From positions 1 to 55,050 of the IMG/VR virus record IMGVR_UViG_3300025137_005047: a stretch of 55,050 nt of DNA; one strand, given 5' to 3'. This document shows, one piece after another, positions 3,004 through 42,925 of the stretch. Positions within the stretch are counted from its first letter, which is position 1; each line of letters starts with the position of its first letter. The notes below the pieces were generated by a model. The model searched no databases, had not been told where the DNA came from, and worked only from the letters and a program-made list of their open reading frames with translations. Source of the DNA: a virus. Taxonomy: Duplodnaviria; Caudoviricetes. Made by a program: the position numbers and the translations under genes.

Positions 3004-3683
3004 AAAAACAAGTAAAAGAGTTATGGGTTTGGCCACCAGGTGCTAGTGGTAATTTTGTAATGACACACTACTATGGAGATGGTGAAATAAAACCTAATAA
3101 CGAGTATCAAGTTAAAGGTCCAGTTAAATGGATACCAATGTTCTTTAACAAAGTTCATGCAAACCATTACTTAAAATTAGGACATACTATAAGACAAGAT
3201 GTATATAGCAGTAACTTACAAAAATTACTTAATAGTACAGAAGAGAATTTATCTTGGCACTGGTTACCGATCTTCTTAAAAAAACATTTAGATATAAACG
3301 AAATACATTATATTTTACCTAAACCAGAAATACAATGGTATATTAGTTTTTTAACGTTACTTAAAAATACAACAATAAACACATACGATAACTTTGTAAA
3401 CGACTTACTAGAACATAGTAATACAAAGTTGTTAGAGTACGAATACAAACAACGTATAGATGAAGTTAACAGTTTTAAAACAAATAAGACAAATATTATC
3501 GATTATGAAAGTTTATTTTTTAACTATGATGCAGAATTACTAGATAGATACAATCTAACTAAAGATGTGGTAGAGAAGTACACATATGACAATATAGAAT
3601 TAATTAAACAGTTTATAAACAAAAATTTAAACGCAGAGCAACAAGCATATTTTATGTCACAGATAAGAAAGTTAGAAAAATGA
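3000..3683 (+). CDS. Hypothetical protein, sulfotransferase-like fold (paralog of 18395..18919)
   Basis: WPPGASGNF at N-terminus and IIDYESLF near C-terminus; same motifs in 18395..18919. Confidence 0.4.
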   Translation: MKKQVKELWVWPPGASGNFVMTHYYGDGEIKPNNEYQVKGPVKWIPMFFNKVHANHYLKLGHTIRQDVYSSNLQKLLNSTEENLSWHWLPIFLKKHLDINEIHYILPKPEIQWYISFLTLLKNTTINTYDNFVNDLLEHSNTKLLEYEYKQRIDEVNSFKTNKTNIIDYESLFFNYDAELLDRYNLTKDVVEKYTYDNIELIKQFINKNLNAEQQAYFMSQIRKLEK

Positions 3684-4123
3684 AAATTTTAATATTTGGA
3701 TTACCTGGAAGTGGTAAAACAACATTAGCAAAGCCTTTCGCAGAATTGATTGGTGCAATACATATTAACGCCGATGTAGTACGCACACAATATGATGATT
3801 GGGATTTTAGTCCTGAAGGAAGAATTAGACAAGCACAACGTATGAAACATTTAGCAGATGGCGTAGTAATGGCAGGTAAAATTGCAGTTGCTGATTTTAT
3901 TTGTCCTACTATAGAAGCAAGAAAAGAATTTGCTCCAGACTATACAGTTTGGATGAATACTATTAAAGTGGGTAAGTATGAAGATACTAACAGAATGTTT
4001 GAGGATCCGGGTGAAGTTAATTACCATGTACGTGAATGGTTTACTGATACACACGCACAACTTGGGCAAGTCGTACAGAACTATATGTTAGTTAAACAAG
4101 GAAAACCCACGGAGAGGTTATAA
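3680..4123 (+). CDS. cysC: Adenylylsulfate kinase-like P-loop kinase
   Basis: GLPGSGKTT Walker A, NADVVR, DFSPEGRIRQ, DFICP, FEDP. Confidence 0.65.
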   Translation: MKILIFGLPGSGKTTLAKPFAELIGAIHINADVVRTQYDDWDFSPEGRIRQAQRMKHLADGVVMAGKIAVADFICPTIEARKEFAPDYTVWMNTIKVGKYEDTNRMFEDPGEVNYHVREWFTDTHAQLGQVVQNYMLVKQGKPTERL

Positions 4124-4512
4124 TGTTTGATTTGAAAAAGCCCACTGCACAAATGTTAGGCAGATGGCAACCATGGCACGACGGACACACTGAATTGTTT
4201 AAACGTGCATTAGCACAAACTGGGCAAGTTGCTATAATGGTTAGAGATGTCGAAGGTGTTGATGCTGGTATGGGAAATGATGATAATCCTTTTGATTTTA
4301 CAACGATTGCACTAGGTATTAATGAGGTACTAGCAAAGCATGGATTTACAGTACAAAAAGAGTATATTGTAATGCAAGTCCCTAATATTGTTGATATAAG
4401 TTATGGTAGAGGCGTAGGTTATACGTTTACAGAACATGACTTAGGTAAAGAACTGCATAGTATTAGTGCTACTAAAATCCGTGCTAATATGCGAAAAAAC
4501 GGCAAATTATAA
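4123..4512 (+). CDS. Cytidylyltransferase-like (HxGH) nucleotidyltransferase
   Basis: GRWQPWHDGH and ISATKIR motifs. Confidence 0.75.
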   Translation: MFDLKKPTAQMLGRWQPWHDGHTELFKRALAQTGQVAIMVRDVEGVDAGMGNDDNPFDFTTIALGINEVLAKHGFTVQKEYIVMQVPNIVDISYGRGVGYTFTEHDLGKELHSISATKIRANMRKNGKL

Positions 4513-4540
4513 AATAATTTAAAAAAGATTAGAAAAAAGG

Positions 4541-4569
4541 TTGACTTTGGATACCTTATACTGTATATT
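4541..4569 (+). promoter_or_regulatory. Sigma70-type promoter for the putative ncRNA
   Basis: AAAAAAGG-TTGACT(4541-46), 17-nt spacer, TATATT(4564-69). Confidence 0.7.
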
Positions 4570-4577
4570 AATAATTA

Positions 4578-4800
4578 ACAACTAGCACAAAAAGGCTTAT
4601 AATCTTTTTGCGTTTGTGGCGGAACAACTCTTCGGCAGAGGGGTAACGCACACTAATTCTTTTTAGGCGCCCGAGTGGGTAGGTTTAAGAGGAGGTGGTT
4701 CTAGTAAATTTCATATCTAAACCTTGCAAAAAATAGATGTGATCTGCTATTAGAAAGTTGGGGGTGAGTTCACAGCAAGGCCCTCCGAACTGCTAGTTGT
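4578..4800 (+). ncRNA. Unassigned highly structured ncRNA (~225 nt, multi-way junction with pseudoknot)
   Basis: Closing helix ACAACTAGCA/TGCTAGTTGT, five internal arms and a CCTTGC/GCAAGG pseudoknot. GC-richer than its flanks, with a promoter on each side and no credible ORF. Confidence 0.7.
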
Positions 4801-4829
4801 AACAATTATTTCAGATTCAGAAAAAAAGG

Positions 4830-4858
4830 TTGACTTTGAGTTCGAAGATAAGTATAAT
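4830..4858 (+). promoter_or_regulatory. Sigma70-type promoter for gp32
   Basis: AAAAAAAGG-TTGACT(4830-35), 17-nt spacer, TATAAT(4853-58). Confidence 0.8.
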
Positions 4859-4945
4859 TGTTAGCAGTACATCAGGAAGGTGTACATATTGCTATCATAG
4901 GCAATAATTAATTAACTTAAATAGGCAAATAGAGAGGCATACATT

Positions 4946-5980
4946 ATGGCAACATTGGCTGATATCCGTGCGAAACTACAAGCACAAGACACCCGCTCAC
5001 AAGGCGGAAACCGCGGCGGCGACAACGCAATTTATCCACACTGGAATATAGCAGAAGGTACAAGTAGTACATTAAGGTTCCTTCCGGATTCCAATCCACA
5101 AAACACATTTTTCTGGGCCGAACGAGCAATGATTCGTTTACCGTTCCAAGGCATTAAAGGACAGGTTGATAGTAAACCTATTACTGTTCAAGTACCTTGT
5201 ATGGAAATGTGGGAACCAGTAGGTTCATGTCCAATACTTACAGAAGTACGTCCATGGTTTAAAGATAGTTCTTTAGAAGACATGGGTCGTAAATATTGGA
5301 AAAAGAAATCTTACGTTTTTCAAGGAATTGTTCGTGATTCTGCACTAGATGAAGAAGCACCAGAAAATCCAATTCGTAGATTTATTATGGGACCACAACT
5401 GTTTAATATTATTAAAGCAAGTTTAATGGATCCTGATATGGAAGAATTACCTACTGATTATTCAAAAGGTATTGATTTCCGTGTTGTAAAAACTAGTAAA
5501 GGTGGATACGCAGATTATTCAACTTCTAACTGGGCAAGAAAAGAAACTGCTCTATCTGAAGATGAAACGAAAGCCATTGAAACTTACGGTCTTTATGACT
5601 TAAATGACTTTCTTCCTAAGAAACCGAGTGAAGCAGAACTAGGCATTATCAAACAAATGTTTGAAGATAGTGTTGATGGTAAGGCTTACGATTCGGAGAA
5701 GTACTCACAGTACTTCCGTCCTTCAGGAGTGCAATTACCAGATAATGGTAACAAAGCAAGTACAACAGTAACATCGGCACCAGCGGCAACGCCAACACCG
5801 ACACCTACTGCAACTGAAACAACTCAGACATCTGCTCCGGCGGCTCCTGTTTCAGAACCTGCTAAAACTGAAGCAGTTGCAACACCTGTTGCATCAGCGA
5901 CAGCAACGACAACTGCACCTGCTGAATCTGGACAACGTGCTGAAGATATTTTAGCAATGATTCGTTCAAGACAACAGTAA
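4946..5980 (+). CDS. gp32: Single-stranded DNA-binding protein, T4 gp32-like
   Basis: LRFLP, CP..CPI, G.DF...K...GGYADYS.S.W motifs and an Ala/Thr/Pro-rich linker; adjacent to uvsX. Confidence 0.8.
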   Translation: MATLADIRAKLQAQDTRSQGGNRGGDNAIYPHWNIAEGTSSTLRFLPDSNPQNTFFWAERAMIRLPFQGIKGQVDSKPITVQVPCMEMWEPVGSCPILTEVRPWFKDSSLEDMGRKYWKKKSYVFQGIVRDSALDEEAPENPIRRFIMGPQLFNIIKASLMDPDMEELPTDYSKGIDFRVVKTSKGGYADYSTSNWARKETALSEDETKAIETYGLYDLNDFLPKKPSEAELGIIKQMFEDSVDGKAYDSEKYSQYFRPSGVQLPDNGNKASTTVTSAPAATPTPTPTATETTQTSAPAAPVSEPAKTEAVATPVASATATTTAPAESGQRAEDILAMIRSRQQ

Positions 5981-41090: not shown

Positions 41091-41167
41091 TGGTAGCAGA
41101 GGCTGGGATCGAACCAACGACCTCCGGCTTATGAGTCCGGCGCTCTAACCAACTGAGCTACTCTGCC
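41091..41167 (-). tRNA. tRNA with CAT anticodon, most likely elongator tRNA-Met
   Basis: Reverse complement GGCAGAGTAGCTCAGTTGGTTAGAGCGCCGGACTCATAAGCCGGAGGTCGTTGGTTCGATCCCAGCCTCTGCTACCA folds as a cloverleaf with encoded CCA and G1-U72. Confidence 0.93.
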
Positions 41168-42199: not shown

Positions 42200-42286
42200 T
42201 TTTTTGCCCCTGATTAATCTTATTAGTCTTTTTACAGAATACTTATCATCTTTTTATAAAAGTAGTACTTTATTTGTACCTTATTT

Positions 42287-42319
42287 GGTTGACATTGTCA
42301 ACCTTTTAGTATATAAATA
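42287..42319 (+). promoter_or_regulatory. tmRNA promoter with palindromic -35 and overlapping late motif
   Basis: GGTTGACA-T-TGTCAACC palindrome; TTGACA, 17-nt spacer, TATAAATA. Confidence 0.55.
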
Positions 42320-42325
42320 TATATA

Positions 42326-42386
42326 GAACGTTGAAGCAATTTGAACGTTAGACTGGACCCGGGTGCGATTCCCGGCATCTCCACCA
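42326..42386 (+). ncRNA. ssrA: tmRNA acceptor piece (3' part of permuted two-piece ssrA); 5' end approximate
   Basis: GGAC-CCGGG-TGCGATT-CCCGG (T arm)-CATCTCC-A-CCA. Confidence 0.9.
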
Positions 42387-42401
42387 ATAAAAGGAAGTGT
42401 A

Positions 42402-42740
42402 ATGGAATTTATGAAGAAGAACATAGGCTGGTTTTTGCTAATAGTATTAGCAATTGGTATTTGGGCAGGTCATTCTGAGCCGTCCGACGACTATCCAGTG
42501 TTTATATTTTATCTGATGATTCCAGTAGTATTATGGAAAGTCCCTCCTTTTAGTTTTAGCGATAAAACTTTTGCTTGGGCAGGAAGACAAGACCCGTTAG
42601 GTACAAAAAAGGCTACCCGTAATTTTTTAAAGGGTAAAAAATGGTACTGGTGGGTAGGTTATACCATTCTATTATGGGGTATAGCAAGTCTTCTTATTAG
42701 TTTAATATCTGGTACACCAACGTTGGTTCTTATCGGATAA
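42402..42740 (+). CDS. 112-aa membrane protein encoded within the tmRNA intervening segment
   Basis: AAGGAAG RBS at 42391-97, ATG 42402, about 3 hydrophobic helices, TAA ending 7 nt before tmRNA G1. Confidence 0.75.
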   Translation: MEFMKKNIGWFLLIVLAIGIWAGHSEPSDDYPVFIFYLMIPVVLWKVPPFSFSDKTFAWAGRQDPLGTKKATRNFLKGKKWYWWVGYTILLWGIASLLISLISGTPTLVLIG

Positions 42741-42747
42741 ACAGAAT

Positions 42748-42925
42748 GGGGATGAACAGGATCGACAGGTAACAACTAGGATCGGTGGAGTTCTCGGTAG
42801 GCGATGACCGTAAATCAAGCAAACTTTTAAATGCAAACACTATGTTCGCAAATGAGGATTTAGCCCTAGCGGCTTAATCTATCGGGGTTGGCAACGTACC
42901 TGGCAACAGAAATCGTTGCACTGTA
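42748..42925 (+). ncRNA. ssrA: tmRNA coding piece (5' part of permuted ssrA); tag (A)ANTMFANEDLALAA; 3' end approximate
   Basis: GGGGATG-AACAGGATCGAC start pairs with CATCTCC, including G3-U70; resume codon GCA at 42833, TAA at 42875-77; CTGGCAACAGAA near 3' end. Confidence 0.9.

What the first reader, a model, noticed from the sequence alone, without database searches (positions are those of the whole stretch)
4541..4810. Unassigned ~225-nt multi-branched, pseudoknotted ncRNA with its own promoter upstream of gp32
Seen: a promoter (4541-69) fires just before a perfect 10-bp closing helix (4578-87/4791-4800). Inside are five arms: 4588-95/4603-10; 4615-21/4647-52 with an inner CTCT/AGAG; 4657-72/4677-94; 4699-4719/4734-55; and 4757-64/4783-90 with a GTG/CAC hairpin. 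The loop sequence CCTTGC (4722-27) is complementary to GCAAGG (4775-80), giving a pseudoknot. Many G-U pairs favour the + strand. gp32 has its own second promoter at 4830, so this looks like a stand-alone RNA rather than a leader. I cannot assign it to tRNA, RNase P, SRP, 6S, an intron or a known riboswitch. It is a candidate novel phage RNA class.
Basis: partly seen in the sequence, partly recalled or inferred. Interest (0 to 1): 0.8.

Follow-up and report, generated by a model that had tools for sequence, protein, structure and literature searches.

The report
Divergent manA-like phage leader RNA
A real, well-folded RNA of about 223 bases with its own promoter in a marine jumbo phage turns out to be a remodelled, previously unannotated relative of the known but functionally unsolved manA RNA of marine phages.

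Summary
The structure is real. The + strand of 4570-4810 folds far better than shuffles (z -4.18). About 70 related loci from marine viral and metagenome contigs keep the fold: 93.6% of cells paired against 40-47% for slid partners, and 26 of 76 pairs changed on both sides.

The inner register of arm 2 and the outer part of arm 5 are wrong; a long-range helix, 4612-4616 with 4786-4790, replaces the latter. The loop-loop "pseudoknot" is complementary but never covaries.

It is not an unassignable class. Three subtypes give full-length, sub-threshold matches to Rfam manA RNA (RF01745; 22-25 bits, E about 1e-4). One is the only hit in a 307-kb phage record. Core helices, junction nucleotides and promoter-proximal setting match a true manA RNA. 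The three-hairpin manA domain is replaced by one hairpin, and the window's own copy scores nothing.

In 42 of the 64 relatives with a readable downstream region (72 loci in all) the RNA is the 5' leader of the next gene. There are five unrelated downstream genes, so "stand-alone, not a leader" is not supported.

Verdict: new variant of a known kind, function unknown.

The parts
4541..4569 (+). Promoter of the RNA: -35 TTGACT (4541-4546), 17-nt spacer, -10 TATATT (4564-4569). The inferred start is about 4576-4578.
   Evidence: Consensus scan. An equivalent -35/-10 pair ends 5-9 nt before the RNA in 29 of 29 distinct upstream regions of relatives. The transcription start is inferred, not mapped.
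4578..4800 (+). The structured RNA, about 223 nt: a manA-like variant with P1, P1a and P2, then a four-way junction bearing P3 to P6.
   Evidence: Fold z -4.18. Covariance models R1 and R2 score it 272.8 and 251 bits. Covariation.
4578..4586 (+). P1 closing helix, 5' strand. It pairs with 4792-4800; in the window a tenth pair, 4587 with 4791, is also possible.
   Evidence: for coordinates. 8 of its 9 pairs show changes on both sides among 24 distinct sequences. The Rfam manA model has no counterpart.
4588..4610 (+). P1a hairpin (4588-4594 with 4604-4610). It corresponds to the first hairpin of the manA model.
   Evidence: 5 of 7 pairs changed on both sides, 97.6% of cells paired. Aligned to manA model positions 1-16 in L123.
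4612..4616 (+). P2 long-range helix, 5' strand. It pairs with 4786-4790 and corresponds to the enclosing helix of manA.
Evidence: 3 of 5 pairs changed on both sides, 100% paired. Found by RNAalifold.
4619..4649 (+). P3: GCG/CGC base, an internal loop GAAYAAC opposite UAAY, and a distal stem 4627-4633 with 4638-4644 capped by a GGCA loop.
   Evidence: Helices 4 and 5 are 100% paired, with 4 pairs changed on both sides. The internal-loop nucleotides match the most conserved manA segment, UGAAUAA ... UAAG.
4651..4697 (+). P4: one long hairpin (4651-4654 with 4694-4697, and 4658-4672 with 4677-4693). Its 3' strand carries GGAGGUGG. It stands where manA has a three-hairpin domain.
   Evidence: Helices 6 and 7: mostly one-sided G-U/A-U changes, and 3 pairs changed on both sides. 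It aligns poorly to the manA model, with posterior 2-5.
4699..4755 (+). P5: 4699-4706 with 4748-4755, then 4711-4719 with 4734-4742, with a 14-nt loop that carries CCUUGC at 4722-4727.
   Evidence: Helices 8 and 9. The basal part shifts register between subtypes (77.5% paired). The distal part is 94.4% paired with one-sided changes only.
4760..4785 (+). P6: 4760-4765 with 4780-4785, with the near-invariant loop GAGUUCACAGCAAG that carries GCAAGG at 4775-4780.
   Evidence: 100% paired, 1 pair changed on both sides. The loop shares ACAG.AA with the last hairpin of manA. Part of its invariance was forced by the search patterns.
4786..4800 (+). The 3' strands of P2 (4786-4790) and P1 (4792-4800).
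4830..4858 (+). Second promoter-like site, TTGACT-17-TATAAT, between the RNA and the SSB gene. AAGGTTGACTTTG is repeated exactly at 4537 and 4826.
   Evidence: It is present in the loci where SSB follows the RNA and absent where an ORF follows directly.
4859..4945 (+). The SSB gene's own leader, with conserved hairpins. It is not part of the RNA.
   Evidence: Conserved in L002. Kept with compensatory changes in L003 and L004, which lack the RNA.
4946..5980 (+). SSB gene of jumbo-phage type, 344 aa: the downstream gene in this clade.

Best explanation
The element is a divergent, remodelled relative of the manA RNA motif (Rfam RF01745) of marine phages.

It is transcribed from its own sigma-70-type promoter, so the RNA forms the extreme 5' end of the transcript. 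It folds into P1, P1a and P2, then a four-way junction with P3, P4, P5 and P6. It keeps the manA core:
- the first hairpin;
- the enclosing helix;
- P3 with the GAAYAA/UAA internal loop;
- the last hairpin with the ACAG.AA loop;
- a pair of complementary loops on the last two arms.

It has a single hairpin where manA has three, and it adds a closing helix, P1.

The most likely mode of action (inferred, not shown) is as a promoter-proximal leader that acts in cis on the message that carries it. That could mean control of read-through, stability or translation in response to a ligand or factor still unknown, as proposed for manA.

In the window's clade the SSB gene has acquired or kept a second promoter and its own leader. 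Only transcripts from the upstream promoter would then carry the RNA.
For: Real RNA.
- z -4.18 on the + strand.
- 27 sequences (24 distinct): 93.6% of cells paired against 39.8-46.6% with slid partners. 26 of 76 pairs changed on both sides against 7-12 when slid. 0 of 500 shuffles reach the score. A second set gave the same picture.

manA link, scores.
- Full-length (1-192 of 192), correct-strand, sub-threshold RF01745 matches in three subtypes: L123 24.9 bits, E 9.3e-5; L094 22.0 bits, E 8.3e-4; G007/L154 22.9 bits, E 1e-4.
- The G007 match is the only hit in a 306,714-base, 87%-complete record. It coincides with the R2 hit.

manA link, structure.
- The manA model's helices fall on my independently covarying P1a, P2, P3 and P6.
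- The conserved UG, GAAUAA, UAA-G and ACAG.AA are shared.
- With filters off, the only three alignments of about 220 nt that R2 made in 15 manA-bearing loci lie exactly on the manA sites, on the right strand (L184, L193, L177; against the positions).

Same setting as a true manA RNA.
- In P-SSM2, TTGACA-17-TATAAT ends 7 nt before the RNA. A C/U-rich tail follows it, and the AUG lies 15 nt after it.
- In my family, 29 of 29 distinct upstream regions carry the promoter.
- In 42 of the 64 loci where the downstream region can be read, an ORF starts within about 30 nt of the hit's 3' end.

Contigs of RNA libraries from three studies bridge the RNA's 3' end into SSB: X7 record 27, X5 record 11, X6 record 19.
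Against: - The window's own copy gives no manA match at E up to 10.
- No member reaches the gathering score of 55.2 bits.
- No manA match in 9 of 10 sources, 5 of 5 records and 4 of 5 records.
- The reciprocal search is not significant. R1 and R2 score the P-SSM2 manA RNA 2.8 and 5.3 bits. R2 with default filters found none in 80 manA-bearing loci. The co-located hits have E 0.37-3.3.
- The P4-P7 domain of manA is absent.
- No expression platform (terminator or anti-terminator, or masking of the ribosome site) was identified.
- The five downstream genes are unrelated, and each record holds one copy (12 of 12 records). That suits a gene-independent function as well as it suits a leader.
- In the window a second promoter separates the RNA from SSB.
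- Contigs cannot prove transcription, strand or ends.
- The homologues were found with exact patterns inside the RNA, so the invariance of those stretches is partly forced.
Confidence: 0.55

Rival explanations
1. It is a stand-alone RNA whose job does not depend on the gene behind it. The RNA is made in quantity from a strong early promoter and assembles into homo-oligomers through an intermolecular CCUUGC/GCAAGG kissing contact. The contact would join the loops of the last two arms, as reported in vitro for manA RNAs.
For: - A July 2026 preprint (10.64898/2026.07.01.735769; passages and section 8 read) reports that manA RNAs form pentamers, decamers and a 60-mer cage. The contacts are intermolecular kissing loops, L5-L7' and L8-L9'.
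- By position, my two complementary loops correspond to manA L8 and L9. In P-SSM2 these carry CUGUA and UACAG (the correspondence is my inference).
- There is one copy per record in 12 of 12 records, including an 87%-complete 307-kb genome.
- Five unrelated downstream genes follow it.
- In the window's clade the next gene has its own promoter.
- The junctions and loops are almost invariant.
Against: - The loop pair never covaries and is lost in the L114, L123 and L162 types.
- The arms that give manA its L5-L7' contact are missing here.
- The oligomers were seen only in vitro, at high RNA and Mg concentrations.
- No convincing terminator follows P1 in the window.
- Contigs of RNA libraries run on into SSB.
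Confidence: 0.27
2. It is a new RNA class unrelated to manA, and the weak Rfam matches are chance or convergence.
For: - There is no match for the window itself.
- All matches lie 30 bits below the gathering score.
- Reciprocal searches are not significant.
- The central domain differs, and there is an extra helix P1.
Against: - Three subtypes match full length at E about 1e-4, one of them as the sole hit in 307 kb.
- The helices of the two models coincide, and the junction nucleotides are shared.
- The promoter, tail and AUG arrangement is identical, and the habitat is the same: marine phages.
- The R2 alignments lie exactly on true manA sites in 3 of 15 loci.
Confidence: 0.15
3. It is an SSB-specific translational operator of the T4 gene 32 type, or a DNA-level element (MITE-like inverted repeats) or a small protein gene.
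For: - It lies upstream of the SSB gene in the window and in 22 of 72 loci.
- Its ends form an inverted repeat.
- The promoter motif is repeated on both sides.
Against: - The same RNA precedes four other genes.
- 79 of the 80 best SSB relatives lack it.
- The SSB gene has its own conserved leader even where the RNA is absent.
- There is one copy per record.
- G-U pairs and compensatory changes point to an RNA of the + strand.
- No ORF of 30 aa or more lies within 4513-4911.
Confidence: 0.03

Closest known systems
manA RNA motif (Rfam RF01745; Weinberg et al. 2010, PMC2864571, passages read)
   Same: - Marine phage habitat.
- It sits directly behind a sigma-70-type promoter, at the 5' end of a message, with a pyrimidine-rich tail and an AUG within about 15-30 nt.
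- It has a first hairpin, then a long-range helix that encloses a multi-stem junction.
- P3 has the GAAUAA/UAA internal loop, and the last hairpin has the ACAG.AA loop.
- The loops on the last two arms are complementary.
- The downstream genes are diverse.
   Different: - Scores are 22-25 bits against a gathering score of 55.2, and nothing for the window copy.
- One hairpin (4651-4697) stands where manA has three, so the GUGGUG and ACCA loops and the GNRA loop are missing.
- An extra covarying closing helix, P1, is present.
- The sequences of the complementary loops differ.
- The carriers are jumbo phages with a PA5oct-type SSB, not T4-like cyanophages.
- In this clade a second promoter lies between the RNA and the gene.
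wcaG RNA motif (RF01761; described with manA in PMC2864571)
   Same: A marine-phage leader RNA and riboswitch candidate with an unknown ligand.
   Different: No match at E up to 10 in any search here.
Translational operator of T4 gene 32 (recalled from general knowledge, not from a call)
   Same: A structured element upstream of a phage SSB gene.
   Different: The RNA here is not tied to SSB: there are four other downstream genes, and 79 of 80 SSB relatives lack it. The SSB gene has a separate conserved leader at 4859-4945 that is the better candidate for such an operator.
Promoter-proximal antitermination RNAs such as HK022 put (recalled, not tested)
   Same: They sit just behind early promoters, act in cis whatever the downstream gene, and are followed by U-rich tracts.
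   Different: put RNAs are much smaller two-hairpin elements.

Membership tests
manA RNA (RF01745) | Score at or above Rfam's gathering score of 55.2 bits. | tested here: not met
   Window: no match at E up to 10. Best relatives: 24.9, 22.9 and 22.0 bits. A true member, P-SSM2, scores 181.6 bits.
manA RNA (RF01745) | Core architecture: 5' hairpin, an enclosing long-range helix, P3 with the conserved GAAUAA/UAA-G internal loop, and a last hairpin with the ACAG.AA loop. | tested here: met
   The manA model's alignment of L123 puts these helices on my covarying P1a, P2, P3 and P6 with high posterior. The P-SSM2 alignment gives the comparison.
manA RNA (RF01745) | Central three-hairpin domain with the GUGGUG loop, the GNRA loop and the ACCA loop. 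| tested here: not met
   A single hairpin, 4651-4697, occupies this place. The model aligns it with posterior 2-5 and many gaps.
manA RNA (RF01745) | Complementary loops on the last two arms. These are L8 and L9 of the 2026 preprint; the 2010 paper also marks a 'pseudoknot?', but I did not see which strands it joins. | tested here: inconclusive
   CCUUGC at 4722-4727 and GCAAGG at 4775-4780 are complementary in 12 of 15 distinct sequences. No pair changes on both sides, and three types lose the complementarity. The correspondence with manA L8 and L9 is my inference.
manA RNA (RF01745) | Position in the 5' UTR of a gene of a marine phage or bacterium. | tested here: met
   Met in relatives: an ORF starts within about 30 nt of the hit's 3' end in 42 of 64 readable loci. 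In the window it is met only in part, because a second promoter and a 145-nt leader lie between the RNA and the gene.
manA RNA (RF01745) | Homo-oligomers in vitro (pentamer-based assemblies). | not testable with these tools
   Known only from the preprint. No tool here folds RNA complexes.
Riboswitch (general) | A conserved aptamer joined to an expression platform, upstream of genes that share a pathway. | tested here: inconclusive
   Aptamer-like conservation is present. No platform was identified. The downstream genes are SSB, ClpP, an Rv2179c-like exoribonuclease and two unknown proteins, which are unrelated.
T4 gene 32-type SSB operator | Constant linkage to the SSB gene. | tested here: not met
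   22 of 72 loci are upstream of SSB, and 42 precede other genes. 79 of 80 SSB relatives lack the RNA.
tRNA, tmRNA, RNase P, SRP, 6S, group I/II introns, known ribozymes and riboswitches in Rfam 15 | A match to the family's covariance model. | tested here: not met
   Only chance-level matches at E 2.5-5.1 in 4450-4960 and E 2.4 in 4570-4810.

The most novel reading that the evidence does not exclude
The RNA is a single-copy, stand-alone gene of marine jumbo phages. Its product self-assembles through the CCUUGC/GCAAGG kissing contact into closed RNA oligomers. It would be a second architectural type of the manA 'RNA cage' fold, one that uses a single interface, and it would work in the infected cell as a scaffold, a decoy or a container rather than as a gene switch.
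Probability: 0.2. Interest if true: 0.85.

Novelty: new variant of a known kind. Interest (0 to 1): 0.5.

Why it matters
- manA is one of the oldest unsolved structured RNAs of marine phages. A 2026 preprint reports that it builds RNA-only cages.
- This finding adds a sister group that Rfam does not detect: about 70 loci, and at least 33 distinct sequences among the first 49.
- The group sits in a different phage lineage, jumbo phages of more than 300 kb. It keeps the core, lacks one whole peripheral domain and has an extra closing helix.
- That natural 'deletion variant' shows which parts of the fold are indispensable. It also gives a direct test of whether the loop-loop contact and oligomer formation matter.
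- The range of downstream genes (SSB, ClpP, an exoribonuclease, two unknown proteins) constrains any ligand hypothesis.
- The constant position right behind an early-type promoter is a shared feature. It may point to a role linked to transcription or to the 5' end of the message.

Tried and rejected
Searches that found nothing.
- Rfam at gathering scores found nothing in the region.
- blastn of 4513-4945 against 50,697 phage records found no match.
- An exact 20-mer of the P6 loop had 0 matches in 185,579 species' genomes. No cellular copy was found at that stringency. One more genome scan was allowed and I did not use it.

Searches through the SSB gene.
- Of the 80 best SSB loci, only L002 holds the RNA.
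- I measured the upstream gap for 69 of the 80 loci. I left out 11 with too little upstream sequence: L007, L013, L017, L024, L030, L048, L058, L059, L062, L075 and L079.
- The gap is 27-295 nt in 68 loci and 424 nt in L002.
- L003 and L004 have gaps of about 290 nt, but these hold a different sequence.

Readings I considered and dropped.
- MITE or mobile repeat: rejected, because there is one copy per record in 12 of 12 records.
- Small ORF: none of 30 aa or more.
- By eye I looked for likeness to RNase P, SRP, the lysine riboswitch and T-loops. None was backed by a model match, so I dropped them.
- A possible pairing between the GAAYAAC loop of P3 and the 3' tail GUUGUUC seemed to covary in a few subtypes by eye. 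It is absent in others. I did not test it formally and make no claim.

Reciprocal searches with R1 and R2 against true manA RNAs were not significant.

RNA libraries.
- All four runs laid were contigs.
- In X5, X6 and X7 the listed pieces begin inside the RNA (4648, 4612, 4589), and none covers 4320-4583.
- X1 covers the whole stretch in one near-identical piece and may be the window's source.
They could show whether a sequence like this one was already included.

Full report
What is there.

The window is a 55-kb fragment, about 13% complete, of a marine jumbo phage. The gene called gp32 (4946-5980) is an SSB about 55% identical to those of PA5oct, Phosso and Atu_ph07. It has no Pfam family.

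A 433-nt gap lies between a 129-aa gene that ends at 4512 and the SSB gene. No ORF of 30 aa or more lies within 4513-4911.

The gap holds two promoter-like sites. One is TTGACT-17-TATATT at 4541-4569; the other is TTGACT-17-TATAAT at 4830-4858. Both sit in an exactly repeated AAGGTTGACTTTG.

The + strand of 4570-4810 folds to -75.6 kcal/mol (z -4.18, 0 of 200 shuffles as good). The - strand gives z -2.67.

Relatives.

- blastn against 50,697 phage records found nothing.
- Of the 80 best SSB loci in IMG/VR, only L002 has the RNA. There the intergenic region is 94% identical, although the SSB is 81% identical.
- Exact-pattern scans with conserved stretches gave 8, 4, 3 and 24 new viral loci and 32 metagenome loci.
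- nhmmer or the covariance models confirmed every one.
- The first 49 loci hold 33 distinct sequences.
- Because the scans needed exact matches inside the RNA, the invariance of those stretches is partly forced.
- Each of the 12 records searched whole holds exactly one copy. One of them is a 306,714-base, 87%-complete genome.
- No cellular genome held the 20-mer tried.

Structure.

RNAalifold on six sequences, then two model-based alignments, give these helices in window coordinates:

| Helix | Coordinates |
|---|---|
| P1 | 4578-4586 with 4792-4800 |
| P1a | 4588-4594 with 4604-4610 |
| P2 | 4612-4616 with 4786-4790 |
| P3 | 4619-4621 with 4647-4649, and 4627-4633 with 4638-4644 |
| P4 | 4651-4654 with 4694-4697, and 4658-4672 with 4677-4693 |
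| P5 | 4699-4706 with 4748-4755, and 4711-4719 with 4734-4742 |
| P6 | 4760-4765 with 4780-4785 |

On 24 distinct sequences:
- 93.6% of cells pair, against 39.8-46.6% when the partners are slid.
- 26 of 76 pairs change on both sides, against 7-12 when slid.
- No shuffle of 500 reaches the covariation score.

The alignment was fitted to the model, which favours it. Even so, the MAFFT alignments already show the same compensatory changes.

P1, P1a, P2, P3 and P6 are the best supported. P4 and distal P5 vary mostly on one side through G-U pairs, which fits only the + strand. Basal P5 shifts register between subtypes.

The inner register of arm 2 and the outer pairs of arm 5 were wrong, and P2 was missed.

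The loop-loop pairing, CCUUGC 4722-4727 with GCAAGG 4775-4780, is present in 12 of 15 distinct sequences. No pair changes on both sides, and the pairing is lost in the L114, L123 and L162 types.

What it is.

The window copy has no Rfam match even at E 10. Three other subtypes of the same family match manA RNA (RF01745) over the whole model, on the right strand:
- L123: 24.9 bits, E 9.3e-5. It is still E 0.011 in a 28.7-kb search.
- L094: 22.0 bits, E 8.3e-4.
- L154 in record G007: 22.9 bits, E 1e-4. This is the only match in 306,714 bases, and it coincides with the R2 hit.

Against this stand several negatives:
- 9 of 10 sources showed nothing.
- All 5 records showed nothing.
- 4 of 5 records showed nothing.
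- All scores lie 30 bits under the gathering score.

The alignment of L123 puts the manA helices on my P1a, P2, P3 and P6. The conserved UG, GAAUAA, UAA-G and ACAG.AA are shared with the true manA RNA of P-SSM2 (181.6 bits). The middle of manA, three hairpins with GUGGUG, GNRA and ACCA loops, has no counterpart. One hairpin, P4, stands there, and my family adds the closing helix P1.

Reciprocal searches were weak:
- R1 and R2 score the P-SSM2 RNA 2.8 and 5.3 bits.
- R2 with default filters finds none in 80 manA-bearing loci.
- With filters off, the only three alignments of about 220 nt that R2 made in 15 such loci lie exactly on the manA sites and strands (L184, L193, L177). Their E-values are 0.37-3.3.

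I read this as a true but distant kinship, with a probability of about 0.8.

Setting.

- All 29 distinct upstream regions carry a -35/-10 pair, spaced 16-17 nt, that ends 5-9 nt before the RNA. The RNA is therefore the 5' end of its transcript. This is inferred.
- The P-SSM2 manA RNA has the same arrangement: TTGACA-17-TATAAT, the RNA, a C/U-rich tail, and an AUG 15 nt later.

The downstream gene differs among the 72 loci examined:

| Downstream gene | Loci | Arrangement |
|---|---|---|
| SSB | 22 | a second promoter lies in between |
| Unknown 140-aa protein | 29 | ORF follows directly |
| Membrane protein of 80 aa (55 aa in one locus) | 8 | ORF follows directly |
| ClpP | 2 | ORF follows directly |
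| Rv2179c-like 3'-5' exoribonuclease | 3 | ORF follows directly |
| Cut off, cannot be read | 8 | - |

Some loci are the same contig held in two collections. In the 42 'direct' loci, the first ORF that the script called starts 3-28 nt after the end of the nhmmer or CM hit.

Contigs of RNA libraries from three studies run from inside the RNA into the SSB gene. This fits read-through but does not prove transcription.

How it may work.

The literature treats manA as a probable cis-regulatory RNA and riboswitch candidate, with a doubtful pseudoknot, upstream of diverse phage genes (PMC2864571, passages; PMC9964418, passages).

A July 2026 preprint reports that manA RNAs form pentamer-based decamers and a 60-mer cage in vitro. 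The contacts are intermolecular kissing loops, L5-L7' and L8-L9'. By position, my two complementary loops correspond to L8 and L9. The arms that bear L5 and L7 are absent.

Two readings remain open:
- A leader that acts in cis. This is favoured by the constant promoter-proximal position directly before ORFs.
- A gene-independent RNA, possibly self-assembling. This is favoured by the single copy, the unrelated neighbours, the near-invariant loops and, in this window, a separate promoter for SSB.

I could find no expression platform.

Verdict.

The interpretation as an unassignable new class and as 'not a leader' is not upheld. It is a new, structurally remodelled variant of the manA kind, unannotated by Rfam, and its function is unknown.

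Noticed in passing
window 42277-42922 (+): A circularly permuted (two-piece) tmRNA gene encoded by the phage. Rfam tmRNA_permuted scores 102.3 bits and alpha_tmRNA 71.3 bits, both above gathering.
   Followed up: no
window 41094-41167 (-): A tRNA gene: Rfam tRNA, 66.2 bits.
   Followed up: no
window 4859-4945; L003 980-1076; L004 2900-3000: The SSB gene's own leader has a hairpin: GTACATCAGGAAGGTGTAC in the window, with ATACAAGTAGATCTTGTAT and ATACTAGTAGATCTAGTAT in the relatives. It is kept through compensatory changes even in phages that lack the manA-like RNA. It is a candidate autoregulatory operator of the SSB.
   Followed up: partly
window 4537-4549 and 4826-4838: The 13-nt promoter core AAGGTTGACTTTG is repeated exactly on both sides of the RNA. 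Four looser copies lie elsewhere in the window; in all there are 6 matches against 2.1 expected. It is probably the phage's early-promoter consensus.
   Followed up: partly
L103 1457-1543 (+); L108 2746-2833 (-); L106 405-453 (+): Related phage contigs also carry other known leader RNAs above gathering. These are the freshwater-2 RNA (65 and 71.3 bits), just after the 140-aa gene that follows the manA-like RNA, and a glutamine riboswitch (39.3 bits).
   Followed up: no
window 3680-4512 (+): The two genes upstream of the RNA are a P-loop kinase-like protein (AAA_33 / APS_kinase, E 6e-8) and a 129-aa protein with a weak, sub-threshold cytidylyltransferase-like match. They are syntenic in L002, L085 and L086 but absent in L083.
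   Followed up: partly
L103 1012-1434 (+); L095 2365-2607 (-): The commonest genes directly behind the RNA, a 140-aa protein and an 80-aa membrane-like protein, have no Pfam or PHROG family.
   Followed up: partly
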